Source: Eledone cirrhosa (taxonomy: Eukaryota). Taken from it: DNA of 64,000 bases. Within the stretch, counting starts at the first letter, position 1. Each line of letters begins with the position of its first letter. Under the pieces are notes generated by a model that was not told the origin of the DNA, made no database searches, and was given only the letters and a program-made list of their open reading frames with translations. Location: assembly GCA_964016885.1 (NCBI GenBank), contig OZ024759.1, forward strand, positions 22,444,001-22,508,000, written 5' to 3'. Shown piece by piece: positions 33,091-64,000 of this stretch. The translations under genes were made by a program, and so were the position numbers.

Positions 33091-35696
33091 AACATGTGTC
33101 AATCGCACACCCTTAAACCTGGAATCCATCAAGGTACGTATTAGTCACATCGATTTTTTTAATTATTCGTTGATAAAATGATATATGTAAACGGCATAAA
33201 TGGAAGTAATTCAGGTGTGAATATATTTTTCATTTCAAAATTGTTAATGCGTTGCTGGTCATGTGGTGATATATGTGTATTGTTACGGGGTGCACTTATG
33301 GTTGTCGATCGAAAACCGATGGTGACTGTCTTGTTCTTCAATTGTGGATCATTTGGTGATTGTACATATGTCAGTCTATACCTCCTCCCCCTCGAAAACT
33401 CAGTGCCCTGTCTGGCTTCTAAGACTTTCGCTGTGGCCAACGCTTGGTTAGAGGGCCAACGGCATGTACATAATGTCGACAAAAAAAAAGAAAACGGTTA
33501 AAAGAGACATGTCTAAGCTGTATAATCTTCTATGAGTATCGCTTGACTGTAAACATGTTTAAACCCTCTCGCGGGAGGGTAAACAAAGCGGTTTAAAGAC
33601 ATGTCTAACTTCCTTCTCCATCGTAGACATCGAACTTAGATAAACCACCACAATTAAACTCCCTAAACACTCCGTTGGCAGACATCGAAAACCCCGTCTT
33701 CATAGCACCACCAATGCGTTAATAATTGTCTTATGAAAAAAATATTTAAATCCAAAATTACTTCCCTTTGTTCATATTAATTTTTTTTTTAACAAAATCT
33801 TTCAAAAGTACCACTATTTAACTCACTAGAATTGCGGCCTTCGCATCGATGCAAGGCCCGTCCCTGACCACCGTGAAGAACTTTTTTTCGAAATTTCTTT
33901 TAATATGCTAATTTGGAAATTATACTAGAAGAAATTTCTCTTAATATGATATTTTTGAAGTTTCTAGATTCTTAAAACCCTTGAAGGTTATTAACATTCT
34001 TGGAAGACAGATAGATTCGAGCCTTTTTAACTTATATTTTAACCCTTGATACTTCTTACTACATTCTTGACTGAGATTCGAACCTTTGATACTTTCTTTA
34101 CATGGTTCAAGGTTCTTATTACATTCTTACCTAGATTTGAATCTTTGATACTTCAAGGTTCATTCTTGGAAGACAGTTTGATTCGATGCTTTCTTTACAT
34201 ACTTAAAGGTTCTTGATACTTGGAACCTTGATTGTTACTCCATTCTTGGCCGACTGTTGGATTCGAACCCTTAATGACACTTTTGGACGACTGTTACATT
34301 GGTAATACTGTCTATACATTTTTTTTTTGTCAAAATAAACTGAACACAATTCGTATATAATATGTAAACTTTATTCATTTTTGTCAAATAAACTGAACAC
34401 GATTCGTATAAGATGTTCGACATTTTTTACGGCAACACAGCATATGACCTCGAAGGCTGGACATCTGTAAAAGGAAATAAAAAGAACATTAAACTTTATA
34501 AAATTCTTCCAATTTTGTTCTTTTATTATATATACATTTAAAAAGAGGAAACCTTTTCCTACATCAAAGTTACGTAGATTAAAACCTAGGGTGTAATATT
34601 CACCATGACCTAAGACGACAGATCTCAAAAGGTTATTAATAATAACCAGAATTTACAACAATACACGAGGATATCATGAAGGGAACTAGAAATAATATTG
34701 TTGGATGGAAACTAAGAGTGTTGAAAAAAGAAACGAAAATTGTAAATGAAGTTTCTAACGAAAGAAACTAAGAGTATCAAAGAATGTAGCAAGAAGTATC
34801 TCATCCAACTGTCTTCCAAGAATGTAAAGAAAGTATCTAAGGTTCTAATCCAAGGTTTAAGGGGACAAGTGTGCGAGAAATCAAGATTCATTGGGTGAAT
34901 ATTTCTTCGAAAGCATGTATACAGTGTCGAGATGGCTTAATTTAGTTTCTTAGAAGAGGTAACACTATTTGTGTGTGTATTTAGTTTTAAATTTCAAAGA
35001 AAGCCACAGAAAATAAAATATGAACACAATAACCAAAGTGTGTATCTAATGAAATGTATGTTTTCTGAAGAGTAGAAAAAAAATCTATATGAAACTAGTG
35101 ATTTTGAAATGTCGAGAAAAATTCTATATGAAACGTATGTTTTCTGAAAAGTCGAAAAAGGAAATCTACATGAAATTGGTGTTTTGTGAAAGGTGTATAT
35201 CTAATAGAATGTATGTATATAGAAAACAATATCCAAAATGTGAGCGTTATTGACATAAAGTGTATATATTAGTCCTAGTATAGAGCAAAGAAAACATTAC
35301 ATACCTCTCTACATGAAAGTAATATCCAAAATGGTTCTCTTCCAAAGAACCGGAAGTTACTTGAAAAAAGTCACTTCAAAAAAAGAAGAGTTTAAAAAAG
35401 GGGAGATAATTCTAATAAAATTTTGAGCAAAAATCGATTGTTCGCGAGGTCCGGGACGCAGGTCAGACAAGTAGCCAGCCTGCGAAATAGTCCCAGCTGC
35501 ATAAACCACGAAGACCTCGTAACGATTCGAACTTCAGACACATAGAATGGTCACGCCATACATAGGTAGACGACAAAGTTAGAACCGCTACGCGCAAAGC
35601 TGCAATTCTACTAAGTAAAATTAGTATACTTATAGGTAAAATTTTAGTATTTTGTACATATATGCAGAACAATTATTATGGAGATAAATATATGTA
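32843..35696 (+). repeat. Modular element unit A (direct-repeat partner of unit B)
   Basis: Near-identical to 36508-40334. ORF offsets are 3625 bp (33159 vs 36784) and 4515 bp (34371 vs 38886) because of internal array expansions in B. Confidence 0.9.
35429..35601 (-). ncRNA. Candidate structured Pol III RNA, variant 2 (unit A copy)
   Basis: Near-identical to 39940-40122 with a 10-bp deletion; upstream TATAAG and a T5 end on the minus strand. Confidence 0.35.
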
Positions 35697-36505: not shown

Positions 36506-37480
36506 CTACTGTTACATCTAAGGTTGTGTTTGTCTTTTAACGTCCCTGATATTAGGTATATTAGTATATTTAGGTAGCTGCCCCTCGATACGGCCCACTG
36601 TCAAATCTAATATAAGGTTGGGCCTGTCTTTTAACAGTATATTGTGATAGCGATTCCTCCATACTGAGAGGTGTCACATCTTATAAAAGGTTGACCTGTC
36701 TTTTAACATCCCAAGAACATGTGTCAATCGCACACCCTTAAACCTGGAATCCATCAAGGTACGTATTAGTCACATCGATTTTTTTAATTATTCGTTGATA
36801 AAATGATATATGTAAACGGCATAAATGGAAGTAATCCAGGTGTGAATATATTTTTCATTTCAAAATTGTTAATGCGTTGCTGGTCATGTGGTGATATATG
36901 TGTATTGTTACGATGTGCACTTATGGTTGTCGATCGAAAACCGATGGTGACTGTCTTGTTCTTCAATTGTGGATCATTTGGTGATTGTACATATGTCAGT
37001 CTATACCTCCTCCCCCTCGAAAGCTCAGTGCCCTGTCTGGCTTCTAAGACTTTCGCTGTGGCCAACGCTGGGTTAGAGGGCCAAAGGCATGTACATAATG
37101 TCGACAAAAAAAAAAGAAAACGGTTAAAAGAGACATGTCTAAGCTGTATAATCTTCTATGAGTATCGCTTGACTGTAAACATGTTTAAACCCTCTCGCGG
37201 GAGGGTAAACAAAGCGGTTTAAAGACATGTCTAACTTCCTTCTCCATCGTAGACATCGAACTTAGATAAACCACCACAATTAAACTCCCTAAACACTCCG
37301 TTGGCAGACATCGAAAACCCCATCTTCATAGCACCACCAATGCGTTAATAATTGTCTTATGAAAAAAATATTTAAATCCAAAATTACTTCCCTTTGTTCC
37401 GTTTGCATATATTAATTTTTTTTTCAACAAAATCTTTCAAAAGTACGTATAAGTACCACTATCTAACTCAGTAGAATTGC

Positions 37481-37635
37481 GGCCTTCGCGGTGGCGTGCG
37501 AACTGCGTCTCGGACTACCAGTCTCCCTGGCTGGCGTTCTATTCGTGGTGGCGTGCGACTGCATCGGCCTGGGACTATTCTGGGCCGGCACATAGATGCA
37601 AGGCCCGTCCCTGACCACCGTGAAGCTTTTTTTTT
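37481..37635 (+). ncRNA. Candidate structured Pol III RNA, variant 1
   Basis: GC-rich island in AT-rich DNA. Terminal stem TTCGCGGTGG/CCACCGTGAA followed by GC and T9. Internal GGGAC-TATTCT-GGGCC...GGCCC-GTCCC hairpin. TATAAG 33 nt upstream. Confidence 0.45.
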
Positions 37636-37781
37636 GAAATTTTTTTAATATGCAAATTAGATAAAAAAAAAAAGAAGAAAAAAAATCTTTGACATAGTAA
37701 ATATATATATATATATGTTGACATAGTATATATATATATATATGTCGACATATATATATAGTGAGACTTGTCGAAGATTTA

Positions 37782-38070
37782 ATCTAATATGCTAATTTGG
37801 AAATTATATTAGAAGAAATTTATTTAAATATAATTTCTAATTTGCATATCTAATATGCTAATTTGGAAATTATATTAGAAGAAATTTCTTTTAATACAAT
37901 TTCTAATTTGCATATCTAATATGCTAATTTGGAAATTATATTAGAAGAAATTTCTTTTAATATAATTTCTAATTTGCATATCTAATATGCTAATTTGGAA
38001 ATTATATTAGAAGAAATTTCTTTTAATATAATTTCTAATTTGCATATTAGAAATTTTTTGTAATATGATA
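37782..38070. repeat. 66-bp tandem repeat (~4.3 copies), each unit an imperfect palindrome carrying octamer motifs
   Basis: Units start at 37782, 37848, 37914 and 37980. ATTTGCAT at 37840, 37906, 37972 and 38038; ATGCTAAT in each unit. Confidence 0.9.
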
Positions 38071-38124
38071 TTTTTGAAGTTTCTAGATTCTTAAAACCCT
38101 TGAAGGTTATTAACATTCTTGGAA

Positions 38125-38775
38125 GACAGTTAGATTCGAACCTTTTTAACTAAACTTAGAATCTTAGATTCTAACCCTTGATACTTCTTACTAGATTCTT
38201 GACTTAAATTCGAACCTTTGATACTTTCTTTACATGGTTCAAATTACATTCTAACCCTTGATACTTCTTACTACATTCTTGACTTAGATTCGAACCTTTG
38301 ATACTTTCTTTACATAGTTCAAGGTTCTTATTACATTCTAACCCCTGATACTTCTTACTACATTCTTGACTGAGATTCGAACCTTTGATACTTTCTTTAC
38401 ATGGTTCAAGGTTCTTATTACATTCTAACCCTTGATACTTCTTACTACATTCTTGACTTAGATTCGAACCTTTGATACTTTCTTTACATGGTTCAAGGTT
38501 CTTATTACATTCTAACCCTTGATACTTCTTACCACATTTTTGACTTACTTAGATTCGAACCTTTGATACTTTCTTTACATACTTCAAGGTTCTTATTACA
38601 TTCTTACCACATTTTTGACTTACTTAAATTCGAACCTTTGATACTTCAAGGTTCATTCTTGGAAGACAGTTTGATTCGAACTTTCGATGCTTTCTTTACA
38701 TACTTAAAGGTTCTTGATACTTGGAACCTTGATGGTGACTCCATTCTTGGACGACTGTTGGATTCGAACCCTTAA
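38125..38775. repeat. ~87-bp tandem repeat with repeated GATTCGAACC (B-box-like on minus strand)
   Basis: GATTCGAAC at 38133, 38287, 38374, 38461, 38552, ~38673 and 38761, plus AATTCGAAC variants. Confidence 0.85.
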
Positions 38776-39939
38776 TGACACTTTTGGACGACTGTTACAT
38801 TGGTAATACTGTCTATACATTATTATTTTTATTTTTTTGTCAAAATAAACGGAACACAATTCGTATAGTATATAATATGTAAACTTTATTCATTTTTGTC
38901 AAATAAACTGAACACGATTCGTATAAGATGTTCGACATTTTTTACGGCAACACAGCATATGACCTCGAAGGCTGGACATCTGTAAAAGGAAATAAAAAGA
39001 ACATTAAACTTTATTAAATTCTTCCAATTTTGTTCTTTTATTATATATACATTTAAAAAGAGGAAACCCTTTCCTACATTAAAGTTACGTAGATTAAAAC
39101 CTTGGGTGTAATATTCACCCTGACCTAAGACGACAGATCTCAAAAGGTTATTAGTAATAACCAGAATTTACAACAATACACGAGGATATCATGAACTAGA
39201 AATAATATTGTTGGATGGAAACTAAGAGTGTTGAAAAAAGAGACGAAAATTGTAAATGAAGTTTCTAACGAAAGAAACTAAGAGTATCAAAGAATGTAGC
39301 AAGAAGTATCTCATCCAACTGTCTTCCAAGAATGTAAAGAAAGTACCTAAGGTTCTAATCCAAGGTTTAAGGGGACACGTGTGCGAGAAATCAAGATTCA
39401 TTGGGTGAATATTTCTTCGAAAGCATGTATACAGTGTCGAGATGGCTTAATTTAGTTTCTTAGAAGAGGTAACACTATTTGTGTGTGTATTTAATTTTAA
39501 ATTTCAAAGAAAGCCACAGAAAATAAAATATGAACACAATAACCAAAGTGTGTATCTAATGAAATGTATGTTTTCTGAAGAGTAGAAACAAAATCTATAT
39601 GAAACTAGTGATTTTGAAATGTCGAGAAAAATTCTATATGAAACGTATGTTTTCTGAAAAGTCGAAAAAGGAAATCTACATGAAATTAGTGTTTTGTGAA
39701 AGGTGTATATCTAATAGAATGTATGTATATAGAAAACAATATCCAAAATGTGAGCGTTATTGACATAAAGTGTATATATTAGTCCTAGTATAGAGCAAAG
39801 CAAACATTACATACCTCTCTACATGAAAGTAATATCCAAAATGGTTCTCTTAGAAAGAACCGGAAGTTACTTGAAAAAAAGTCACTTCAAAAAAAGAAGA
39901 GTTTAAAAAAGGGGAAATAATTCTAATAAAATTTTAAGC

Positions 39940-40122
39940 AAAAATCGATTGTTCGCGAGGACCGGGACGCAGGTCAGACAAGTAGCCAGCCTGCGAAATA
40001 GTCCCAGCTGCATAAACCACGAAGACCTCGTAACGATTCGAACTTCAGACGCATAGAATGGTCACGCCATACATAGGTAGACGACAAAGTCGGAACCGCT
40101 ACGCGCATCGCCGCGCAAAGCT
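39940..40122 (-). ncRNA. Candidate structured Pol III RNA, variant 2 (unit B copy)
   Basis: Minus strand: TATAAG at -33, AGTAGAATTGC, terminal stem TTTGCGCGG/CCTCGCGAA, internal GTTCGAATC, GGGAC-TATTTC-GCAGG...CCTGC-GTCCC hairpin, T5. Confidence 0.4.
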
Positions 40123-40649
40123 GCAATTCTACTAAGTAGAATTAGTATACTTATAGGTAAAATTTTATTCATTTTTTAAAAAAAAATATAGAAACGGAAA
40201 GGGAGGTAACACGTCTCAAAATATATTTAGTGTGTTATCTCACTCTTATTCCGTTTCTATATTTAAATTAATTTAGAATCTACTAGTATTTTGTACATAT
40301 ATGCAGAACAATTATTATGGAGATAAATATATGTGTGGGTTGTCTTATATATATACATAAGACAATTATTAACGCATTAATAATTGTCTTATGTATATAC
40401 ATAAGACAATTATTGGTGGTGTTGTGAAGATGGGGTTGTTGTACATATATACACAACAATTGTTATGGAGATAAATATAAGTTATGAAGGTAAGTTTGAG
40501 GATAGCCTCAGAAGGATGGAAGAAGTCCTTGACAAAGTCGACCAGGGTCTCAACATTCTGCTGCTGTGAGACTTTTAACCTACCTATGGCCACCTCCTCC
40601 CTGGAATGACATCACTCGAACAGAGACAGATGGAGTCCATACTGGCCCT

Positions 40650-40800: not shown

Positions 40801-43393
40801 AGAGAGTCACATTTTCAATATGATTACAATACAAACCATGTGCCAGAACAACAGACAAAAATCTTATTCCCAGATCTCAAAACAGTTAAATGCACAACAG
40901 AAAAAACAATAAGGAACCCTATCTGAAATAGGCACTACTTGAAATTGAAATGACACTCAAACTTTTCCATGAGAAGGATGGGAGAAGCCATAGAAAATAT
41001 TAAAACAAACCTTTAAATTTGCAAAAGAAACTGCCTTGGTACACTGTAAGATTGGGCCACTCTTCCATAAAAATGGTTCATTCTTTTTATTGATAACGTA
41101 TGTAAATGACTCATTTCCTTTTACAGATGTCCAGCCTTCAAGGTCATATGCTGTGTTATTTGTCGTAACAAGTGAGAATGGCGAAGTTTCTGTAAATAAA
41201 AAAGGTTACATTTTATATACAAATCATGTTCAGTTTATTTTGACAAAAATGAATAAAGAAGTCAAGTAGAGGTTTAACAGTTGCCTCAAAAGGTAGATGG
41301 CCTCCGTAGTACTTTTACCTGTCACAAATCCAAACTATAGAGGTATGTAATGTTTTCTTTGCTCTATACACATACATTTTATTAGATGCATACTTTATGT
41401 CAACAACTCTCACACTTTGGATCTTGTGTTCATGTGGCTTTCTGGCACATCGCCACTCACTCAACATGCTTTCTTTGAAATTAAAACATAATACACATAC
41501 AAATAGTGTTACCCCTTCTAAGAAACTAAACTAAACCATCTCGACACTATATACATACTTTCTAACTCAAATTTCTCTCTATAAACCTCATTCTGTAGAT
41601 CTTTCTTTAGAGACATACATATAAAACTATATACTCTCAACTAAGAAAAATATATAAACCTTCTTCTCTATACCTTTCCTTTTTTCTTCTAATAAACCTC
41701 TATACACAGCTACATTTTATTATCTTCTCTATTTCTTTCACACGTGTCCTCTTCTATGTAGAGAGAAACCTTTGTGAGAATCGAACTCACGATTGTAAAG
41801 TCCGACAACTTTACATAAATACTTTGCGCATTGATGTCCAATTATTTCGGCGCATGCGTACTTTAATGAAAATTAAATGGCCGCATGAAGAACTACATGT
41901 TTTACAACGTGAATTAAAAAAACGTTAAAAACTTGGATTTTACTAATTTTACGGAGGTAAACTAAAGCTTTATTTTATGTTGATCAGTTTTATTGAAACA
42001 TTTTCTGTTTATTTCCCTCCATAATGTCAGAAATAATTATTTAAACATTAGTTTTGTTTAGCCACATCTACATTCTAATGTAATACAACACCCTCCTCAT
42101 ACATATTTCTTGCTCATACGAAATAGTGTATTTTGTTAATTATTATTTAAGCTTGTAAATAATATATTTCTATTTCCCTTCATGATATCCTCGTATTTTG
42201 TAATCAGAGGTTAACTGTTGATCCGTGTTAACTAGATCGATATCGCTTTAACTTTTAACCTACAATCATTTATATTCTTAGTTTCTTTCGTTAGAAACTT
42301 TATTTACATTTTCAGTTTCTTATTTTCCCACCAACAATATTATGTAGACGATAGTTTTGTTTAAGCTACTGCCACATTTCTAGGTCATATGAAATAGAAT
42401 TTAGCTTATTTTCTATATTATTTAAATAATATATTTCTAGTTCCCTTCATGATATCCTCGTGTTTTGTTGTAAATTCGTTTTGGAGGACTTGCTCCTGTC
42501 ACACATGATGTTGGTATATTCTGGTTATTAATATTAACCAGAATCTTTTGAGATTGTTGTCTTTGGTCAGGGTGAATATTACACCCGTCACGTTTTGGCC
42601 ATAAAACTTAAGTTTTGTACCCATTTTTTTTTTTTTAGATATCATGATCGTAATCAAAGATTAACTGTTGATTAATTTAGATATCATGATCGTAATCAAA
42701 GATTAACTGTCGGTCAGTGTTAACTAGATCGATATCACTTTAACCCTTTACATTCTTAGTTTCTTCTCACGAAACTTTATTTACGTTCTTTGTTCCTTTT
42801 CAACACTTCATTTACATTCTTAGTTTCTTTTCTCGTCATTGAAGACAACTAAGAATGTAGATGAAGTTTCTAAAGAAAGAAATTTAGTTGTGTTTTTTTT
42901 TTTTAGACATCATCATCGTAATCAGATCGATATTATTAACCAGATCGATACCGCTTTAACTTTTAATCTACGTAACAAGTAACCGTTTACAATCCTCTTT
43001 ATGCATTTTATGTACATTCCTAGTTTCTTTCTTTATACACTTCATCTACCTTCTTATTTCCTTTCTTTAAGAAACTTCATATAGATTCTTAGTTTCCTCT
43101 ATTTAAATGATTTTTATAATAAAAGACAAAATTGAATGAATTTTATAAAGTTTAACATTCTTTTTATTGACAACGTCTGTAAATGACTTTTATTTCTTTT
43201 ACAGATGTCCAATCATCGAGGTCATATGCTGTGTTGTTTGCCGTAACAAGTAGGAATGTCGTAGTTTTTGTTAATAAAGAAAGTTTACATCTTATATACG
43301 AATTGTGTTCAGTTTATTTTGCCAAAGATGAATAAAGAAATCAAGAGTCTACAAGAAACTGAGTAAGACGCGCTATAAAGAACGTAAGTGTAT

Positions 43394-43672
43394 ATGAAGT
43401 TTCTAAATAAAGAAACTAAGAGGTAGATAAAGTTTCTTGAAAGAAACTAAGAATGATGAAGTTTCTAAATAAAGAAACTAAGAGGTAGATAAAGTTTCTT
43501 GAAAGAAACTGAGAATGATAAATTTTTTAAATAAAGAAACTAAGGGGTAGATAAAGTTTCTTGAAAGAAACTAAGAATGATGAAGTTTCTAAATAAAGAA
43601 ACTAAGAGGTAGATAAAGTTTCTTGAAAGAAACTAAGAATGATAAATTTTTTAAATAAAGAAACTAAGAATG
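43394..43672. repeat. 62-bp tandem repeat (~4.5 copies; mirror at ~44232-44512), each unit two ~31-bp AGTTTCT-N-AGAAACT subunits
   Basis: Unit registers at 43396, 43458, 43520, 43582 and 43644. Confidence 0.9.
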
Positions 43673-43771
43673 TTTTTGAAATTGTCGAAAAATAGATCTA
43701 TGAAACGTACCCTCTTTTTTTAATTTTTTTTTTTTATTAAAGGGAGGTAACTCTGTAATATTTTTGAGAGA

Positions 43772-44133
43772 ACACCTTCGTCACCGTCGTTACCACCGTC
43801 GGCACCTTCGTAACCGTCGTCACCATTACCGCCGCCACCTGGTGGCGGAGGTAAAGATACCGACGACGACGAAGTTGCACCGTCGTCTTCGTCGGTACCT
43901 TTGCCGCCGCCACCTGGTGGCGGAGGTAAAGGTACCGACGACGACGAAGTTGCACCGTCGTCTTCGTCGGTGTCTTTTCCTCCGCCACCAGGTGGCGGCG
44001 GCAAAGGTACCGACGAAGACGACGGTGCAACTTCGTCGTCGTCGGTATCTTTACCTCCGCCACCAGGTGGCGGCGGTAATGGTGACGACGGTTACGAAGG
44101 TGCCGACGGTGGTAACGACGGTGACGAAGGTGT
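43772..44133. other. CpG/GC-rich nested-hairpin core of the palindrome
   Basis: 9-bp ACCGTCGT-type repeats flank 75-bp units containing CCGCCACC-T-GGTGGCGG and ACCGACGACGACGAAGTTGCACCGTCGTCTTCGTCGGT hairpins. Confidence 0.9.
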
Positions 44134-46829
44134 TCTCTCAAAAATATTACAGAGTTACCTCCCTTTAATAAAAAAAAAAATTAAAAAAAGAGGGTACGTT
44201 TCATAGATCTATTTTTCGACAATTTCAAAAACATTCTTAGTTTCTTTATTTAGAAACTTCATCATTCTCAGTTTCTTTCAAGAAACTTTATCTACCCCTT
44301 AGTTTCTTTATTTAGAAACTTCATCATTCTTAGTTTCTTTCAAGAAACTTTATCTACCCCTTAGTTTCTTTATTTAGAAACTTCATCATTCTTAGTTTCT
44401 TTCAAGAAACTTTATCTACCCCTTAGTTTCTTTATTTAGAAACTTCATCATTCTTAGTTTCTTTCAAGAAACTTTATCTACCTCTTAGTTTCTTTATTTA
44501 GAAACTTCATATACACTTACGTTCTTTATAGCGCGTCTTACTCAGTTTCTTGTAGACTCTTGATTTCTTTATTCATCTTTGGCAAAATAAACTGAACACA
44601 ATTCGTATATAAGATGTAAACTTTCTTTATTAACAAAAACTACGACATTCCTACTTGTTACGGCAAACAACACAGCATATGACCTCGATGATTGGACATC
44701 TGTAAAAGAAATAAAAGTCATTTACAGACGTTGTCAATAAAAAGAATGTTAAACTTTATAAAATTCATCCAATTTTGTCTTTTATTATAAAAATCATTTA
44801 AATAGAGGAAACTAAGAATCTATATGAAGTTTCTTAAAGAAAGGAAATAAGAAGGTAGATGAAGTGTATAAAGAAAGAAACTAGGAATGTACATACAATT
44901 CATAAAGAGGATTGTAAACGGTTACTTGTTACGTAAATTAAAAGTTAAAGCGGTATCGATCTGGTTAATAATATCGATCTGATTACGATGATGATGTCTA
45001 AAAAAAAAAAACACAACTAAATTTCTTTCTTTAGAAACTTCATCTACATTCTTAGTTGTCTTCAATGACGAGAAAAGAAACTAAGAATGTAAATGAAGTG
45101 TTGAAAAGGAACAAAGAACGTAAATAAAGTTTCGTGAGAAGAAACTAAGAATGTAAAGGGTTAAAGTGATATCGATCTAGTTAACACTGACCGACAGTTA
45201 ATCTTTGATTACGATCATGATATCTAAATTAATCAACAGTTAATCTTTGATTACGATCATGATATCTAAAAAAAAAAAAATGGGTACAAAACTTAAGTTT
45301 TATGGCCAAAACGTGACGGGTGTAATATTCACCCTGACCAAAGACAACAATCTCAAAAGATTCTGGTTAATATTAATAACCAGAATATACCAACATCATG
45401 TGTGACAGGAGCAAGTCCTCCAAAACGAATTTACAACAAAACACGAGGATATCATGAAGGGAACTAGAAATATATTATTTAAATAATATAGAAAATAAGC
45501 TAAATTCTATTTCATATGACCTAGAAATGTGGCAGTAGCTTAAACAAAACTATCGTCTACATAATATTGTTGGTGGGAAAATAAGAAACTGAAAATGTAA
45601 ATAAAGTTTCTAACGAAAGAAACTAAGAATATAAATGATTGTAGGTTAAAAGTTAAAGCGATATCGATCTAGTTAACACGGATCAACAGTTAACCTCTGA
45701 TTACAAAATACGAGGATATCATGAAGGGAAATAGAAATATATTATTTACAAGCTTAAATAATAATTAACAAAATACACTATTTCGTATGAGCAAGAAATA
45801 TGTATGAGGAGGGTGTTGTATTACATTAGAATGTAAGATGTGGCTAAACTAAACTAATGTTTAAATAATTATTTCTGACATTATGGAGGGAAATAAACAG
45901 AAAGTGTTTCAATAAAATTGATCAACATAAAATAAAGCTTTAGTTTACCTCCGTAAAATTAGTAAAATCCAAGTTTTTAACGTTTTTTTAATTCACGTTG
46001 TAAAACATGTAGTTCTTCATGCGACCATTTAATTTTCACTAAAGTACGCATGCGCCGAAATAATTGGACATCAATGCGCAAAGTATTTATGTAAAGTTGT
46101 CGGACTTTACAATCGTGAGTTCGATTCTCACAAAGGTTTCTCTCTACATAGAAGAGGACACGTGTGAAAGAAATAGAGAAAATAATAAAATGTAGCTGTG
46201 TATAGAGGTTTATTAGAAGAAAAAAGGAAAGGTATAGAGAAGAAGGTTTATATATTTTTCTTAGTTGAGAGTATATAGTTTTATATGTATGTCTCTAAAG
46301 AGAGATCTACAGAATGAGGTTTATAGAGAGAAATTTGAGTTAGAAAGTATGTATATAGTGTCGAGATGGTTTAGTTTAGTTTCTTAGAAGGGCTAACACT
46401 ATTTGTATGTGTATTATGTTTTAATTTCAAAGAAAGCATGTTGAGTGAGTGACGATGTGCCAGAAAGCCACATGAACACAAGATCCAAAGTGTGAGAGTT
46501 GTTGACATAAAGTATGCATCTAATAACATGTATGTGTATAGAGCAAAGAAAACATTATATACCTCTATAGTTTGGATTTGTGACAGGTAAAAGTACTACG
46601 GAGGCCATCTACCTTTTGAAGCAACTGGTAAACCTCTACTTGATTTCTTTATTCATTTTTGTCAAAATAAACTGAACATGATTTGTATATAAAATGTAAC
46701 CTTTTTTTATTTACAGAAACTTCGCCGTTCCCACGTGTTACGACAAATAACACCGCATATGACCTTGAAGGCTGGACATCTGTAAAAGGAAATGAATGTC
46801 ATTTACATACGTTATCAATAAAAAGAATA

Positions 46830-48190
46830 TTAAACTGTATTAAATTCTTTCTATTTTGTCTTTTATTACATATAGATTTAAATAGAGGAAACAAGAAAAC
46901 CTTTCCTACATCGAAGGAGGTAACTAAACTAAGAATGTAAATGAAGTGTTGAAAACGAACAAAGAAAGTAAATGAAGTTTCGTAAGAAGAATCTAAATGG
47001 TTCTATGCTACCTAGGTTAAAATGATATCGATCTAGTTAATACTGACCAACAGTTAATCTTTGATTATGATGATGATGATGATATCTAAAAAAAAAAATT
47101 TCGTTCAAAACTAGACAGGTATAATATTGACTATGATCAAAGATGACAGATCCAAAAGATTCTGGTTAATATTAAGATGTGCCAGAAAGCCACATAAAAA
47201 TCCCTTCACATAAACACAATATCCAAAATGCATGTGAGGTTTATTGACATAAAATGTATGTGTATGGTTGTTCGCGAGGTCCGGGAACGCAGGCCAGCAA
47301 GTAGCCATCCTGCAAACAGTCCCAGCTGCATAAGCCACGAAGACCTCGTAACGATTCGAACTTCAGACACATAGAATGGCCACGCCATGCATAAGTAGAC
47401 GACGAAGTCCGAACCGCTGCTTTTAGGTAAAACTTTATTCATTAAAATATATATATATATATAGAAATGGAGAGGAAAGTAACACGTCTCAAAATAGATT
47501 TCGTGTGTTATCTCACATTCCGTTTCTATATTTAAATTAATTTAGAATCTACTAGTATTTTGTACATATATGCAGAACAATTGCAGAACAAGGCGGTGGA
47601 TTGGCAGTATCGATAGAGGGTCGGACGCCATGCTTTGCAGCACAGTTAGTCCCTTTACGGACTGAGTTCAAATCCCGCCGAGGTTAACTTTGCCTTTCAT
47701 CCTTACGGGGTCGATAAAATAAAGTACCAGTAATACACTGGAGTAATTGCTGGCCTTGTGCCAAATGTAGAAACAATTATTATGGAGATAAATATATGTA
47801 CACATATGTGTGGGTGTATATACGTTAATAATTGTCTTATGTATAAGACAAATATTAACGCATTGGTGGTGTTGTGAAGATGGGGTTGTTGTACATATAT
47901 ACACAACAATTGTTATGGAGATAAATATATGTGTGGGTGTATATGTATATATGCCGAGGAGAGAGAAGAAGGGGGAGCACGTCAGCTCTGATAGAGAAGA
48001 TCAGAAGTGTGGAGAGAGCGGTTGATAGGTCTAAGTGACACACTGATAGTACATATGAAGCAACTGTAAATGGCAATATGTGTCACATATCGGCCACCCG
48101 ACGCACCTAGTTATGAAGGTAAGTTTGAGGATAGCCTCAGAAGGATGGAAGAAGTCCTTGACAAAGTCGACCAGGGTCTCAACATTCTGC
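46830..48190 (+). repeat. Third, more diverged and partial copy of element modules (including truncated candidate RNA at 47268-47420)
   Basis: Matches 34500-34640, 39950-40100, 40155-40330 and 40400-40560 with more substitutions. Confidence 0.8.
47592..47778 (+). mobile_element. tRNA-derived Meta-domain-type SINE
   Basis: GGCGGTGGATTGGCAG...GAGTTCAAATCCCGCCGAGGTTAACTTTGCCTTTCATCC..CGGGGTCGATAAAATAAAGTACCAG. Confidence 0.85.
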
Positions 48191-48883: not shown

Positions 48884-51800
48884 AGCTACGACATATATAT
48901 TCTATATTAAAAGACAGACCCACTCTCAGATGTAACTGTGGGCTATATGGTATGACAGCTACCACAATATACTGTATATAAAGGATGTTAAAAGACAGAC
49001 CTATCCTCAGATGTAACTGTGGGCTATATGGTATGACAGCTACCACAATATACTGTATATAAAGGATGTTAAAAGACAGACCCACCCTCAGATGTAACTC
49101 TGGGCTATATGGTATGACAGCTACCACAATATACTGTATATAAAGGATATTAAAAGACAGACCCACTCTCAGATGTAACTGTGGGCTATATGGTATGACA
49201 GCTACCACAATATACTGTATATAAAGGATGTTAAAAGACAGACCTATCCTCAGATGTAACTGTGGGCTATATGGTATGACAGCTACCACAATATACTGTA
49301 TATAAAGGATGTTAAAAGACAGACCCACCCTCAGATGTAACTCTGGGCTATATGGTATGACAGCTACCACAATATACTGTATAAAAAGGATGTTAAAAGA
49401 CAGACCCATCCTCAGATGTAACTGTGGGCTATATGGTATGACAGCTACCACAATATACTGTATATAAAGGATGTTAAAAGACAGACCCACCCTCAGATGT
49501 AACTCTGGGCTATATGGTATGACAGCTACCACAATATACTGTATATAAAGGATGTTAAAAGACAGACCCATCCTCAGATGTAACTCTGGGCTATATGGTA
49601 TGACAGCTACCACAATATACTGTATATAAAGGATGTTAAAAGACAGACCCATCCTCAGATGTAACTGTGGGCTATATGGTATGACAGCTACCACAATATA
49701 CTGTATATAAAGGATGTTAAAAGACAGACCCACCCTCAGATGTAACTCTGGGCTATATGGTATGACAGCTACCACAATATACTGTATATAAAGGATGTTA
49801 AAAGACAGACCCATCCTCAGATGTAACTGTGGGCTATATGGTATGACAGCTACCACAATATACTGTATATAAAGGATGTTAAAAGACAGACCCATCCTCA
49901 AATGTAACTGTGGGCTATATAGTATGACAGCTACCGCAATATACTGTATATAAAGGATGTTAAAAGACAGACCCATTCTCAAATGTAACTGTGGGCTATA
50001 TGGTATGACAGCTACCACAATATACTGTATATAAAGGATGTTAAAAGACAGACCCATCCTCAGATGTAACTGTGGGCTATATGGTATGACAGCTACCACA
50101 ATATACTGTATATAAAGTATGTTAAAAGACAGACCCATCCTCAGATGTAACTGTGGGCTATATGGTATGACAGCTACCACAGATGTAACTGTGGGCTATA
50201 TGGTATGACAGCTACCACAATATACTGTATATAAAGGATGTTAAAAGACAGACCCATCCTCAGATGTAACTGTGGGCTATATGGTATGACAGCTACCACA
50301 ATATACTGTATATAAAGGATGTTTAAAGACAGACCCACCCTCAGATGTAACTGTGGGTTATATGGTATGACAGCTACCACAGATGTAAGTGTGGTCTATA
50401 TGGTATGACAGCTACCACAATATACTGTATATAAAGGATGTTAAAAGACAGACCCATCCTCAGATGTAACTGTGGGCTATATGGTATGACAGCTACCACA
50501 ATATACTGTATATAAAGTATGTTAAAAGACAGACCCATCCTCAGATGCAACTGTGGGCTATATGGTATGACAGCTACCACAGATGTAACTGTGGGCTATA
50601 TGGTATGACAGCTACCACAATATACTGTATATAAAGGATGTTAAAAGACAGACCCATCCTCAGATGTAACTGTGGGCTATATGGTATGACAGCTACCACA
50701 ATATACTGTATATAAAGTATGTTAAAAGACAGACCCATCCTCAGATGTAACTGTGGGCTATATGGTATGACAGCTACCACAGTTGTAACTGTGGGCTATA
50801 TGGTATGACAGCTACCACAATATACTGTATATAAAGGATGTTAAAAGACAGACCCATCCTCAGATGTAACTGTGGGCTATATAGTATGACAGCTACCACA
50901 ATATACTGTATATAAAGGATGTTAAAAGACAGACCTATCCTCAGATGTAACTGTGGGCTATATGGTATGACAGCTACCACAATATACTGCATATAAAGGA
51001 TGTTAAAAGACAGACCCACCCTCAGATGTAACTGTGGGCTATATGGTATGACAGCTACCACAATATACTGTATATAAAGGATGTTAAAAGACAGACCCAC
51101 ACTCAGATGTAACTGTGGGCTATATGGTATGACAGCTACCACAATATACTGTATATAAAGGATGTTAAAAGACAGACCCACCCTCAGATGTAACTGTGGG
51201 CTATATGTTATGACAGCTACCATAGATGTAACTGTGGGCTATATGGTATGACAGCTACCACAATATACTGTATATAAAGGATGTTAAAAGACAGACCCAC
51301 CCTCAGATGTAACTGTGGGCTATAAGGTATGACAGCTACCACAATATACTGTATATAAAGGATGTTAAAAGACAGACCCACCCTCAGATGTAACTGTGGG
51401 CTATATGGTATGACAGCTACCACAATATACTGTATGTAAAGGATGTTAAAAGACAGACCCACCCTCAGATGTAACTGTGGGCTATAAGGTATGACAGCTA
51501 CCACAATATACTGTATATAAAGGATGTTAAAAGACAGACCCACCCTCAGATATAACTGTGGGCTATATGGTATGACAGCTACCACAATATACTGTATGTA
51601 AAGGATGTTAAAAAACAGACCCAGCCGCAGATGTAAGTGTGGGCTATATGGTATGAGAGCTACCACAATATACTGTATATAAAGGATGTTAAAAGACAGA
51701 CCCACCCTCAGATGTAACTGTGGGCAATATGGTATGACAGCTACCACAGATGTAACTGTGGGCTATATGGTATGACAGCTACCACAATATACTGTATATA

Positions 51801-54800
51801 AAGGATGTTAAAAGACAGACCCATCCTCAGATGTAACTGTGGGCTATATGGTATGACAGCTACCACAATATACTGTATATAAAGGATGTTAAAAGACAGA
51901 CCCATCCTCAGATGTAACTGTGGGTTATATGGTATGACAGCTACCACAATATACTGTATATAAAGTATGTTAAAAGACAGACCCATGCTCAGATGTAACT
52001 GTGGGCTATATGGTATGACACCTACCACAATATACTGTATATAAAGGATGTTAAAAGACAGACCCATCCTCAGATGTAACTGTGGGTTATATGGTATGAC
52101 AGCTACCACAATATACTGTATGTAAAGGATGTTAAAAGACAGACCCACCCTCAGATGTAACTGTGGGCTATATGGTATGACAGCTACCACAATATACTGT
52201 ATATAAAGGATGTTAAAAGACAGACCCATCCTCAAATGTAACTCTGGGCTATATGGTATGACAGCTACCACAATATACTGTATATAAAGGATGTTAAAAG
52301 ACACACCCATCCTCAGATGTAACTGTGGGCTATATGGTATGACAGCTACCACAATATACTGTATATAAAGGATGTTAAAAGACAGACCCATCCTCAGATG
52401 TAACTGTGGGCTATATGGTATGACAGCTACCACAATATACTGTATATAAAGGATGTTAAAAGACAGACCCATCCTCAGATGTAACTGTGAGCTATATGGT
52501 AGGACAGCTACCACAATATACTGTATATAAAGGATGTTAAAAGACAGACCCACCCTCAGATGTAACTGTGGGCTATATGGTATGACAGCTACCACAATAT
52601 ACTGTATATAAAAGATGTTAAAAGACAGACCCATTCTCAAATGTAACTGTGGGCTATATGGTATGACAGCTACCACAATATACTGTATATAAAGGATGTT
52701 AAAAGACAGACCCATTCTCAAATGTAACTGTGGGCTATATGGTATGACAGCTACCACAATATACTGTATATAAAGGATGTTAAAAGACAGACCCATCCTC
52801 AGATGTAACTGTGGGCTATATGGTATAACAGCTACCACAATATACTGTATATAAAGGATGTTAAAAGACAGACCCATTCTCAAATGTAACTGTGGGCTAT
52901 ATGGAATAACAGCTACCACAATATACTGTATATAAAGGATGTTAAAAGACAGACCCATCCTCAGATATAACTGTGGGCTATATGGTATGACAGCTACCAC
53001 AATATACTGTATATAAAGGATGTTAAAAGACAGACCCACCCTCAGATGTAACTGTGGGTTATATGGTATGACAGGTACCACAGATGTAAGTGTGGTCTAT
53101 ATGGTATGACAGCTACCAAAATATACTGTATATAAAGGATGTTAAAAGACAGACCCATCCTCAGATGTAAGTGTGGGCTATATGGTATGACAGCTACCAC
53201 AATATACTGAATATAAAGGATGTTAAAAGACAGGCCCACCCTCAGATGTAACTGTGGGCTATATGGTATGACAGCTACCACAATATACTGCATATAAAGG
53301 ATGTTAAAAGACAGACCCACCCTCAGATGTAACTGTGGGCTATATGGTATGACAGCTACCACAATATACTGTATATAAAGGATGTTAAAAGACAGACCCA
53401 CCCTCAGATGTAACTGTGGGCTATATGTTATGACAGCTACCATAGATGTAACTGTGGGCTATATGGTATGACAGCTACCACAATATACTGTATATAAAGG
53501 ATGTTAAAAGACAGACCCACCCTCAGATGTAACTGTGGGTTATATGGTATGACAGCTACCACAATATACTGTATATAAAGGATGTTAAAAGACAGACACA
53601 TCCTCAGATGTAACTGTGGGTTATATGGTATGACAGCTACCACAATATACTGTATATAAAGGATGTTAAAAGACAGACCCATTCTCAAATGTAACTGTGG
53701 GCTATATGGTATGACAGCTACCACAATATACTGTATATAAAGTATGTTAAAAGACAGACCCATCCTCAGATGTAACTGTGGGCTATATGGTATGACAGCT
53801 ACCACAGATGTAACTGTGGGCTATATGGTATGACAGCTACCACAATATACTGTATATAAAGGATGTTAAAAGACAGACCCATCCTCAGATGTAACTGTGG
53901 GCTATATGGTATGACAGTTACCACAATATACTGTATATAAAGGATGTTAAAAGACAGACCCATCCTCAGATGTAACTGTGGGCTATATGGTATGACAGCT
54001 ACCACAATATACTGTATATAAAGTATGTTAAAAGACAGACCCATCCTCAGATGTAACTGTGGGCTATATGGTATGACAGCTACCACAGATGTAACTGTGG
54101 GCTATATGGTATGACAGCTACCACAATATACTGTATATAAAGGATGTTAAAAGACAGACCCATCCTCAGATGTAACTGTGGGCTATATGGTATGACAGCT
54201 ACCACAATATACTGTATATAAAGGATGTTAAAAGACAGACCTATCCTCAGATGTAACTGTGGGCTATATGGTATGACAGCTACCACAATATACTGCATAT
54301 AAAGGATGTTAAAAGACAGACCCACCCTCAGATGTAACTGTGGGCTATATGGTATGACAGCTACCACAATATACTGTATATAAAGGATGTTAAAAGACAG
54401 ACCCACACTCAGATGTAACTGTGGGCTATATGGTATGACAGCTACCACAATATACTGTATATAAAGGATGTTAAAAGACAGACCCACCCTCAGATGTAAC
54501 TGTGGGCTATATGTTATGACAGCTACCATAGATGTAACTGTGGGCTATATGGTATGACAGCTACCACAATATACTGTATATAAAGGATGTTAAAAGACAG
54601 ACCCACCCTCAGATGTAACTGTGGGCTATAAGGTATGACAGCTACCACAATATACTGTATATAAAGGATGTTAAAAGACAGACCCACCCTCAGATGTAAC
54701 TGTGGGCTATATGGTATGACAGCTACCACAATATACTGTATGTAAAGGATGTTAAAAGACAGACCCACCCTCAGATGTAACTGTGGGCTATAAGGTATGA

Positions 54801-63800: not shown

Positions 63801-64000
63801 CCTATCCTCAGATGTAACTGTGGGCTATATGGTATGACAGCTACCACAATATACTGTATATAAAGGATGTTAAAAGACAGACCCATCCTCAGATGTAACT
63901 GTGGGCTATATGGTATGACAGCTACCACAGATGTAACTGTGGGCTATAAGGTATGACAGCTACCACAATAGACTGTATATAAAAGATGTTAAAAGACAGA
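48884..64000 (+). repeat. Satellite DNA: 81-bp monomer plus 38-bp deletion monomer, higher-order repeats; runs off the window end
   Basis: Consensus TTAAAAGACAGACCCA(T/C)CCTCAGATGTAACTGTGGGCTATATGGTATGACAGCTACCACAATATACTGTATATAAAGGATG. The 27-aa periodic minus-strand ORFs reflect the monomer length. Confidence 0.98.

What the first reader, a model, noticed from the sequence alone, without database searches (positions are those of the whole stretch)
37440..40160. Convergent pair of structured, Pol III-like small RNA genes with compensatory stem changes (candidate new ncRNA family)
Seen: two diverged GC-rich islands face each other, 37481-37635 (+) and 40122-39940 (-). Both have TATAAG exactly 33 nt before the inferred start despite partly divergent intervening sequence, and both have the same AGTAGAATTGC leader. 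Both can form a 5'/3' closing stem (TTCGCGGTGG/CCACCGTGAA vs TTTGCGCGG/CCTCGCGAA) whose G-U pairs work only in this orientation, and both end in an oligo-T run (T9; T5). Both keep a hairpin GGGAC-[6-nt bulge TATTCT/TATTTC]-inner stem-GTCCC, but the inner stem is GGGCC/GGCCC in one and GCAGG/CCTGC in the other, so pairing is preserved while sequence changes. Variant 2 also has GTTCGAATC (B-box). Further copies: 35429-35601, 47268-47420 (truncated) and 33836-33888 (internally deleted). Established: TATA near -30 with an oligo-T end is type-3 Pol III architecture (U6, 7SK, Y RNA), and paired ends plus oligo-T occur in vault, Y and adenoviral VA RNAs. Inference: an element-borne structured RNA that I do not recognise as any known family.
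Basis: partly seen in the sequence, partly recalled or inferred. Interest (0 to 1): 0.85.

Follow-up and report, generated by a model that had tools for sequence, protein, structure and literature searches.

The report
New paired small-RNA gene family
Two facing GC-rich stretches belong to a family of well over a hundred genes, in a likely octopus genome, predicted to make small folded RNAs that match no catalogued family; they spread as inward-facing pairs and would most likely act as decoys for proteins that bind double-stranded RNA.

Summary
The two islands are members of one family with at least 141 places on 19 contigs of this 3.0 Gb genome, in four types of 150-195 nt. Neighbouring copies face each other in 26 of 38 cases. 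Changes keep the predicted stems more often than expected (v1 40 of 78 against 21.7; v2 33 of 67 against 20.2). The promoter is hybrid, not type 3: TATA-like box at -31, an internal B box in 52 of 83 copies, and an upstream motif shared with the genome's own U6 genes. The predicted starts are 37479 (+) and 40124 (-); the 'leader' lies upstream of them. No Rfam match; the genome's U6, 7SL, vault and 7SK-like genes lie elsewhere. The genes spread by DNA duplication inside a mosaic with no fixed ends and no protein found. A tRNA-Arg origin is suggested, weakly. Transcription is untested because no RNA run was listed. Closest analogues are snaR and 4.5SI; the fold recalls VA RNA and EBER. The decoy role is inferred. 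Verdict: new variant of a known kind.

The parts
37479..37635 (+). Type v1 RNA gene: predicted start G37479, terminal stem, long G-U-rich apical stem, bulged 3' stem, T9 run (37627-37635)
37448..37455 (+). TATA-like box at -31 of v1
37383..37393 (+). RTTAYYTCCCT motif at -96, shared with upstream DNA of the genome's U6 genes
37401..37408 (-). Reversed octamer/PSE-like motif (ATGCAAAC) near -71 of v1
37536..37544 (+). Degenerate B box of v1 (GTTCTATTC; GTTCGATTC in 21 of 45 v1 copies)
39940..40124 (-). Type v2 RNA gene: predicted start G40124, B box 40043-40035, T5 run 39944-39940
40148..40155 (-). TATA-like box at -31 of v2
40200..40210 (-). RTTAYYTCCCT motif at -86 of v2
37782..38047 (.). 66-bp tandem repeats carrying ATGC[AT]AAT sites on both strands
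38168..38580 (-). 87-bp tandem repeats carrying B-box matches on the minus strand
38880..39020 (-). Module E: pyrimidine tract + ACAG|ATGTCC (splice-acceptor-like), no conserved reading frame, found in 21 of 22 loci examined; coordinates approximate
33821..33894 (+). Internally deleted v1 copy; faces the 35422-35616 copy in a tandem duplicate of the unit
35422..35616 (-). v2 copy lacking 11 nt of the 5' arm of the terminal stem
47265..47420 (-). Truncated v2 copy, start region and terminator lost
41080..46828 (.). 5.7-kb palindrome (98.5% arms) of the carrier unit, centred on GC-rich 75-bp hairpin repeats near 43952
48907..64000 (.). 81-bp satellite related to degenerate repeats upstream of v1; travels with some copies of the unit

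Best explanation
These two islands are members of a family of at least 141 related sequences that are predicted to be RNA polymerase III genes for 150-195 nt folded RNAs, spread by DNA duplication mostly as inward-facing pairs, and likely to act through their shape as decoys for proteins that bind double-stranded RNA. Shown: the family, its four types, the facing arrangement, co-copying of 100-200 bp of upstream DNA, the promoter motifs and their match to the genome's U6 genes, and stem-preserving change. Inferred: the factor that reads the U6 distal motif, TFIIIB at the -31 box and TFIIIC at the internal boxes start Pol III at the G of GCGGC, and it stops at the first T run. The RNA closes its ends in a stem, which would make it stable, and shows a long G-U-rich apical stem and a bulged 3' stem. 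Inferred more weakly: the 5' half grew out of a tRNA-Arg-like head; the gene is the conserved core of a unit that inverts and duplicates within a chromosome; the RNA titrates dsRNA-binding proteins (ADAR, Dicer, PKR- or RIG-I-like sensors, ILF3/NF90), as snaR, EBER and VA RNA bind such proteins. Odds: expressed, selected Pol III RNA family about 0.8; decoy role given that about 0.45.
For: Structure: on 20 v1 copies 95.0% of 957 cells pair, 5 of 48 pairs change on both sides, covariation above all 500 shuffles, slid controls 34-39%. Across 20 copies of all four types the 3' stem pairs in 96.8% of 187 cells, 3 of 10 pairs double-changed. On trees, v1 keeps pairing in 40 of 78 changes (21.7 expected) and v2 in 33 of 67 (20.2 expected); Watson-Crick to G-U outnumbers Watson-Crick to A-C 23:11 and 20:10, and 14:2 on v2 internal branches. 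Folding z <= -2 in 48 of 66 distinct full-length sequences (25 shuffles each). Conservation peaks on promoter + RNA (0.96-1.00 within four subfamilies) and is lower in flanks; between v1 subfamilies 0.86 against 0.52-0.71. Promoter: YATAARTA at -30/-31 in 80 of 83 copies; RTTAYYTCCCT upstream in 44 of 45 v1 and 20 of 38 v2 copies and at -266 to -289 in 4 of 5 U6 loci checked, against 2 hits in 151 kb of background; 110 exact promoter-core matches in the genome against 2 for the control. Arrangement: 26 convergent, 8 tandem, 4 divergent; outside C20 20:2:1. Analogues: snaR spread by segmental duplication in a core sequence (PMC3045588, passages); complementary ends stabilise 4.5SI (PMC3440375, abstract); EBERs bind La, PKR and RIG-I (PMC8223928, passages).
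Against: No transcript evidence either way. No test of protein binding was possible; the decoy step rests on analogy. In v2, paired sites change as often as unpaired ones (0.80 against 0.75, P 0.68), terminal branches show no excess (13 of 32 kept, 10.3 expected), and the closing stem is in the best fold of only 11 of 29 sequences against 30% of shuffles. Further pair types do not exceed shuffles (450 of 500; 489 of 500), and double-changed pairs are reached by 51 of 500. Structures were derived from these same sequences and copies recombine, so the P values are optimistic. The B box is imperfect in 24 of 45 v1 copies, including the window copy and the young v1B subfamily. The U6 motif is absent from the 7SL copy checked and from the 7SK-like locus. 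Many copies are deleted or truncated.
Confidence: 0.38

Rival explanations
1. Same Pol III RNA genes, but the RNA is a precursor: the apical stem (about 63 nt in v1) is cut by Dicer into small RNAs, as in the tRNA-miRNA transcripts of murine gammaherpesvirus 68.
For: tRNA-like head and long stems; the apical stem is of pre-miRNA length; TMERs are a Pol III precedent (PMC8223928, passages).
Against: The apical stem has several internal loops and differs between types; no Rfam miRNA match on the RNA genes; family motifs not found in the four supplementary files held as text for PMC9699675, which hold little sequence and may concern other species.
Confidence: 0.15
2. Same expressed RNAs, but acting in translation or as a protein scaffold with a specific partner (snaR on ribosomes, BC1/BC200-like), not as a dsRNA decoy.
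For: snaR-A is ribosome-bound (PMC3045588, passages); the bulged GGGAC/GTCCC stem is conserved in sequence across all types, which fits a specific protein site.
Against: No A-rich or other recognisable translation-factor motif was seen; nothing tested.
Confidence: 0.17
3. The working part is the DNA: a Pol III/TFIIIC-loaded platform (promoters, B-box and octamer arrays) that stalls forks or clusters loci and so drives inverted duplication of a selfish unit; the RNA fold is a by-product.
For: 18 B-box and 10 octamer-like sites in window 28000-48800; palindromes and facing pairs; chromosome-restricted subfamilies.
Against: The 87-bp and 66-bp arrays occur in only 4 and 1 of 22 loci; stem-preserving and G-U-biased change is not expected for a DNA site.
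Confidence: 0.12
4. Relic of an integrated large DNA virus or Polinton-like element whose coding genes are lost, the RNAs being its VA/EBER equivalents.
For: VA/EBER-like size, fold and hybrid promoter; hairpin-repeat palindrome centre near 43952.
Against: No viral or mobility protein in 24 selected open frames scanned or seen among the long frames listed; 0 matches for 2 patterns in viral contigs; no fixed ends; the promoter motif is the host's own U6 motif.
Confidence: 0.08
5. Dead tRNA- or SINE-derived fragments carried passively in segmental duplications and homogenised by gene conversion, under no selection.
For: Many broken copies; partial likeness of v2 to a tRNA-derived SINE (2-15 of 1000 shuffles for 3 of 4 v2 copies); v2 terminal branches look neutral.
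Against: Conservation peaks on promoter + RNA, four types keep one fold, TATA spacing is fixed.
Confidence: 0.1

Closest known systems
snaR family (hominid small NF90-associated RNAs)
   Same: Lineage-restricted, structured Pol III RNAs grown from an older Pol III head by internal expansion; spread by mostly intrachromosomal segmental duplication inside a 'core' sequence (PMC3045588, passages).
   Different: snaR is Alu/7SL-derived and about 117 nt (listing of PMC2094060); this family shows no 7SL likeness, is 150-195 nt, lies on 19 contigs and forms inward-facing pairs. NF90 binding untested.
Rodent 4.5SI and 4.5SH RNAs
   Same: A/B boxes plus TATA-like box at -31/-24; 4.5SI is tRNA-derived (PMC10137851, abstract) and has complementary ends that stabilise it (PMC3440375, abstract).
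   Different: About 100 nt; here longer, three-stem fold, U6-type distal motif close to the gene, more than 100 dispersed copies. No sequence comparison was run.
EBV EBER1/2 and adenovirus VA RNAs
   Same: Pairs of related, highly folded Pol III RNAs; EBERs use hybrid promoters (PMC8362101, passages) and bind La, PKR, RIG-I (PMC8223928, passages). Their size of about 160-170 nt, the terminal/apical/central fold and Dicer/PKR decoy action of VA RNA are recalled.
   Different: Those are viral and lie in tandem (recalled); these are chromosomal, convergent, with no viral genes found and no Rfam match to those families.
tRNA-derived SINEs and TRIMp3 elements (Helenus, Cassandra)
   Same: tRNA-like head with Pol III boxes inside a repeated sequence.
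   Different: [quoted passage not shown]

Membership tests
Any Rfam 15 family | Score at or above gathering threshold | tested here: not met
   0 matches in the window; at E<=10 nothing credible on either gene; 12 further loci gave only weak matches far under threshold, none on an intact RNA gene
Type-3 Pol III gene (U6-like) | TATA at about -30 | tested here: met
   80 of 83 copies at -30/-31; U6 at -30
Type-3 Pol III gene (U6-like) | PSE-position element as in this genome's U6 (ATGC[AT]AAT forward at -76 to -78) | tested here: not met
   0 of 83 forward; reversed near -71 in 21 of 45 v1, 0 of 38 v2
Hybrid Pol III promoter class (EBER, 7SL, vault, BC200) | Internal B box plus upstream TATA-like and activator sites | tested here: met
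   B box GTTCGA[AT]TC in 21 of 45 v1 and 31 of 38 v2; U6 distal motif upstream in 64 of 83; class defined in PMC8362101. Met in sequence only.
Hybrid Pol III promoter class (EBER, 7SL, vault, BC200) | Transcription by Pol III in vivo | not testable with these tools
   No RNA holder listed
7SL / Alu-like (SINE1, snaR) | Homology to the 7SL Alu domain | tested here: not met
   12 comparisons with the genome's own 7SL, best 69 of 2000 shuffles
Vault RNA | RF00006 match, 80-150 nt panhandle | tested here: not met
   The genome's vault-like cluster is on C3; none of the 16 matches lies at a family locus
7SK RNA | RF00100 match | tested here: not met
   Single match on C2
Y RNA / sbRNA | Rfam Y RNA or sbRNA match | tested here: not met
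   No match; no genome-wide Y RNA search was run
tRNA / tRNA-derived RNA | Cloverleaf | tested here: not met
   ARAGORN 0 genes in the window
tRNA / tRNA-derived RNA | Colinear homology of the 5' half to one tRNA | tested here: inconclusive
   tRNA-Arg(ACG) best of 28 tRNA-like sequences for 8 of 9 copies, z 2.2-4.8; the panel lacks most isotypes and Arg was added on a prior guess
SINE (retroposed) | Copies begin at the transcription start, without the source gene's upstream DNA | tested here: not met
   100-200 bp of upstream DNA is shared by nearly all of 99 upstream regions
TIR / foldback DNA transposon | Fixed termini shared by copies | tested here: not met
   Shared blocks end at different places
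TIR / foldback DNA transposon | Target-site duplication | not tested
   No fixed ends were found at which to look
Viral VA/EBER RNA | Lies in a viral genome or provirus | tested here: not met
   No viral genes found nearby; 0 viral-contig matches. Distant relatives would be missed.
snaR-like dsRBP ligand | Binds NF90/ILF3 or another dsRNA-binding protein | not testable with these tools
   Needs pull-down

The most novel reading that the evidence does not exclude
A protein-free selfish duplicon that multiplies by making palindromes and carries, in each inward-facing arm, its own VA/EBER-like Pol III RNA that blunts the host's double-stranded-RNA defences (Dicer, ADAR, PKR/RIG-I-like sensors): a chromosomal parasite armed with an RNA suppressor, in a lineage known for heavy RNA editing.
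Probability: 0.17. Interest if true: 0.88.

Novelty: new variant of a known kind. Interest (0 to 1): 0.64.

Why it matters
New Pol III RNA families in animals are rare, and nine full-text searches listed no description of this one; subscription papers and Repbase were not searchable. If expressed, it is an invertebrate parallel to snaR and 4.5SI, with more than 100 genes, four structural types and an unexplained rule that they face each other. It gives exact, cheap predictions (start sites, lengths, strands). In a cephalopod, where RNA editing is unusually heavy (recalled; also stated in the abstract listing of PMC9699675), an abundant double-stranded decoy would bear on how ADAR and dsRNA sensing are tuned. 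It also offers a case to test whether a small RNA gene can be the core that drives segmental duplication.

Tried and rejected
7SL/Alu origin, prompted by a recalled likeness: rejected against the genome's own 7SL. Known families: none. The 'leader' as an A box with an earlier start: fits TRGYNNANNNG in v2 but would put the TATA-like box at the start site; set aside after the U6 spacing comparison, not excluded. Derivation from SINE A: 3 of 4 v2 copies score above most shuffles (2, 2, 15 of 1000), the C13 v2 copy and all 5 v1 copies do not, and a SINE profile found nothing; unresolved. SINE B: no likeness. Antisense guide role: longest perfect complement to U6, 7SL, vault, SINEs, module E or satellite was 10 nt, best 4 of 200 shuffles among 72 comparisons; rRNA and mRNAs not tested. 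Autonomous partner: of 24 selected frames Pfam named one retrotransposon endonuclease and one weak hit under cut-off; other long frames looked like LINE, Penelope-like, mariner or Helitron pieces by eye only. Fixed ends: none. Viral contigs: 0 matches for 2 patterns. Metagenomes: 1 match of 27 nt with unrelated flanks, taken as chance. Expression: no RNA holder listed; the three runs laid are contigs of one sample covering all 30 bins, show presence only and may be the assembly's own sample. The U6 distal motif as a general Pol III motif: absent from the 7SL copy and the 7SK-like locus. RNAalifold on mixed v2 copies gave a poor consensus. The sense strand folds better than the antisense in 66 of 66, but G+U skew alone does this, so it is not counted as evidence. 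Earlier findings of the scan: nothing returned.
Full report
Setting. The window lies on contig C20 of a 3.0 Gb assembly, G000. Its SINEs, microsatellites and retroelement fragments look octopod to me; this is recalled and was not tested. From about 28.6 to 48.2 kb the window is an AT-rich, non-coding mosaic of repeated modules, with a 5.7-kb palindrome (41080-46828, 98.5%) and a following 81-bp satellite.

The observation. v1 and v2 are homologous (0 of 2000 shuffles; 32.5 bits with a model built from v1 only). The window copies are among the weaker folders: z -2.0 and -0.89. The v2 closing stem is not in its best fold.

The family. DNA searches with four copies returned 40-42 matches each, the tool's scoring limit. 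A pattern for the promoter core matched 110 places against 2 for the control; 100 were listed. Merging the lists gives 141 places on 19 contigs, a lower bound that includes truncated copies and approximate positions. None of them is on C1-C5. Subfamilies are largely chromosome-specific. Fetching new places showed two more types: v3 (C8, C22; 163-164 nt; z -5.0) and v4 (C18; 186 nt; z -3.7). Of 38 neighbour pairs closer than 12.5 kb, 26 are convergent, 8 tandem and 4 divergent; outside C20 the count is 20:2:1. These pairs are not independent, since many descend from one duplicated unit. Facing genes may be identical (C8, C22) or of different types (window, C21).

Structure. v1 folds into a terminal stem, a long G-U-rich apical stem holding the B box, and a bulged 3' stem. 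On 20 distinct copies, 95.0% of 957 cells pair and 5 of 48 pairs change on both sides (7 of 500 shuffles); the covariation score exceeds all shuffles; further pair types do not (450 of 500); slid controls pair 34-39%. The 3' stem across 20 copies of all four types pairs in 96.8% of 187 cells, with 3 of 10 pairs double-changed (51 of 500 shuffles) and 12 such cells (0 of 500). Counting changes on trees, with deleted copies, v3 and v4 left out: v1 (44 sequences) keeps pairing in 40 of 78 changes against 21.7 expected, and v2 (27 sequences) in 33 of 67 against 20.2. Watson-Crick pairs turn into G-U twice as often as into A-C (23:11, 20:10), which points to one strand read as RNA and not to a DNA hairpin. 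Against this: v2 terminal branches are neutral (13 of 32, 10.3 expected) and v2 paired sites are no slower than unpaired ones (0.80 and 0.75), while in v1 they are slower (1.02 and 1.55, P 0.03). Among 66 distinct full-length sequences, 48 have z <= -2. The closing stem forms in 31 of 33 v1, 3 of 3 v3, 1 of 1 v4 and only 11 of 29 v2, with 17-30% in shuffles. The structures came from these sequences and the copies recombine, so the P values are optimistic. Identity between copies peaks on promoter + RNA and is lower in the flanks.

Promoter. I compared with the genome's own Pol III genes. Four of five U6 loci checked have TATA at -30, ATGC[AT]AAT at -76 to -78 and RTTAYYTCCCT at -266 to -289; the fifth lacks both upstream motifs. 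The new genes have YATAARTA at -30/-31 from the G of GCGGC in 80 of 83 copies, and the same RTTAYYTCCCT at -85 to -97 in 44 of 45 v1 and 20 of 38 v2 copies (background 2 in 151 kb; 5 in the window against 0.41 expected). They lack the forward -77 element. GTTCGA[AT]TC lies inside 21 of 45 v1 and 31 of 38 v2 copies. This is the hybrid class described for EBER, 7SL, vault and BC200 (PMC8362101, passages). The motif is missing from the 7SL copy checked and from the 7SK-like locus, so it is not universal. The predicted starts are 37479 and 40124. AGTAGAATT is then upstream DNA; it is nearly invariant and unexplained.

Origin. 7SL is rejected. tRNA-Arg(ACG) is the best of 28 tRNA-like sequences for 8 of 9 copies (z 2.2-4.8), colinear from the 5' end to the B box, but the panel is narrow and Arg was added on my guess. 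Three of four v2 copies also resemble a tRNA-derived SINE; v1 does not. I take a tRNA-like head as likely and the parent as open.

How it spreads. Upstream DNA of 100-200 bp travels with nearly all of 99 upstream regions compared, so the copies are DNA duplicates and not retrocopies. Shared blocks among eight C25 copies range from a few kb to most of 30 kb, include inserted retroelements and end at different places; C13, C21, C27, C8 and C22 units also show no common end. The units share modules, notably a splice-acceptor-like one in 21 of 22 loci, with no conserved reading frame. No mobility or viral protein belonging to the unit was found. Inverted arms of 87-98% identity flank several pairs. 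The simplest reading is a core that inverts and duplicates within a chromosome, as described for snaR (PMC3045588, passages).

What it does. Shown: a multi-copy family with Pol III promoter anatomy and a fold kept through change. Inferred at about 0.8: it is transcribed into stable RNAs with paired ends (end pairing stabilises 4.5SI; PMC3440375, abstract). No guide complementarity was found among the targets tried, and selection seems to fall on pairing, so I commit to a shape-based role: a decoy for dsRNA-binding proteins, as with EBER (PMC8223928, passages), snaR and VA RNA (recalled). Overall 0.38. Rivals: ribosome-bound or scaffold RNA 0.17, Dicer precursor 0.15, DNA platform 0.12, neutral debris 0.10, viral relic 0.08.

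Known or new. No Rfam family matches; U6, 7SL, vault-like and 7SK-like genes are at other loci. Nine paper searches listed nothing on it (listings only unless cited). Also read: PMC10886601 first of six parts, PMC4758252 passages, PMC10137851 abstract, PMC9699675 supplements searched for motifs with no hit. Repbase, MirGeneDB, subscription papers and other cephalopod genomes were not available, so a prior annotation as an unclassified repeat cannot be excluded. It works like snaR or 4.5SI in origin and spread, and like VA/EBER in build, but is a member of none. Verdict: new variant of a known kind; interest 0.64, limited mainly by the lack of expression data.

Noticed in passing
L214-L218 (G000 C5, C9, C19 U6 genes): This genome's U6 promoters use an octamer-like ATGC[AT]AAT at the PSE position (-76 to -78) and RTTAYYTCCCT at -266 to -289; useful for building cephalopod U6 expression cassettes.
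   Followed up: partly
L228-L233 (G000 C3:221.18-221.25 Mb): Cluster of 14 vault-RNA-like matches of two types (87-93 nt) at or above the Rfam cut-off.
   Followed up: no
L296:1501-1790 (G000 C2:194.68 Mb): Single 7SK-like gene, 45.1 bits, TATA near -31, T-run end.
   Followed up: no
L081-L092 (G000 C12:42.10-42.13 Mb) and L216-L226 (C19:31.78-31.84 Mb): 7SL and U6 genes lie in tandem arrays of 20 or more copies.
   Followed up: no
L253, L262, L265-L272: A dispersed tRNA-like family with identical upstream flank and variable anticodon (read as Ala, Asp, Val, Thr); may be a tRNA-bearing repeat such as a Helenus-type LTR.
   Followed up: no
window 43770-44140: GC-rich 75-bp repeats of small hairpins at the centre of the 5.7-kb palindrome, flanked by RTTAYYTCCCT on each side; all matches listed lie in C20 loci.
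   Followed up: partly
window 38880-39020 (-), 41100-41230 (+), 43180-43300 (+): Module E: pyrimidine tract, ACAG|ATGTCCAGCCTTC, then AATAAA about 80 nt on; looks like the last exon of a spliced Pol II non-coding transcript carried by the unit.
   Followed up: partly
window 40122-40141 and 37460-37478: The nearly invariant AGTAGAATT before the predicted start is half of an imperfect palindrome (AATTCTACT-T-AGTAGAATT in v2); possible protein site, unexplained.
   Followed up: no
L066:7503-7910 (G000 C20:21.55 Mb): Open frame that looks like eIF3e by recall, possibly a retrocopy.
   Followed up: no
L240 (G000 C25:7.345-7.355 Mb): C2H2 zinc-finger frame with 17 fingers about 10 kb or more from a v1 copy; the only one in 1.5 Mb of fetched loci.
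   Followed up: no
L129:6094-6867 and 7608-8381 (-): Duplicated 258-aa open frame beyond the satellite, no Pfam match.
   Followed up: partly
L078:7700-7763: Isolated 64-nt piece of the v1 3' stem embedded in unrelated sequence; similar fragments in L069, L074, L077.
   Followed up: no
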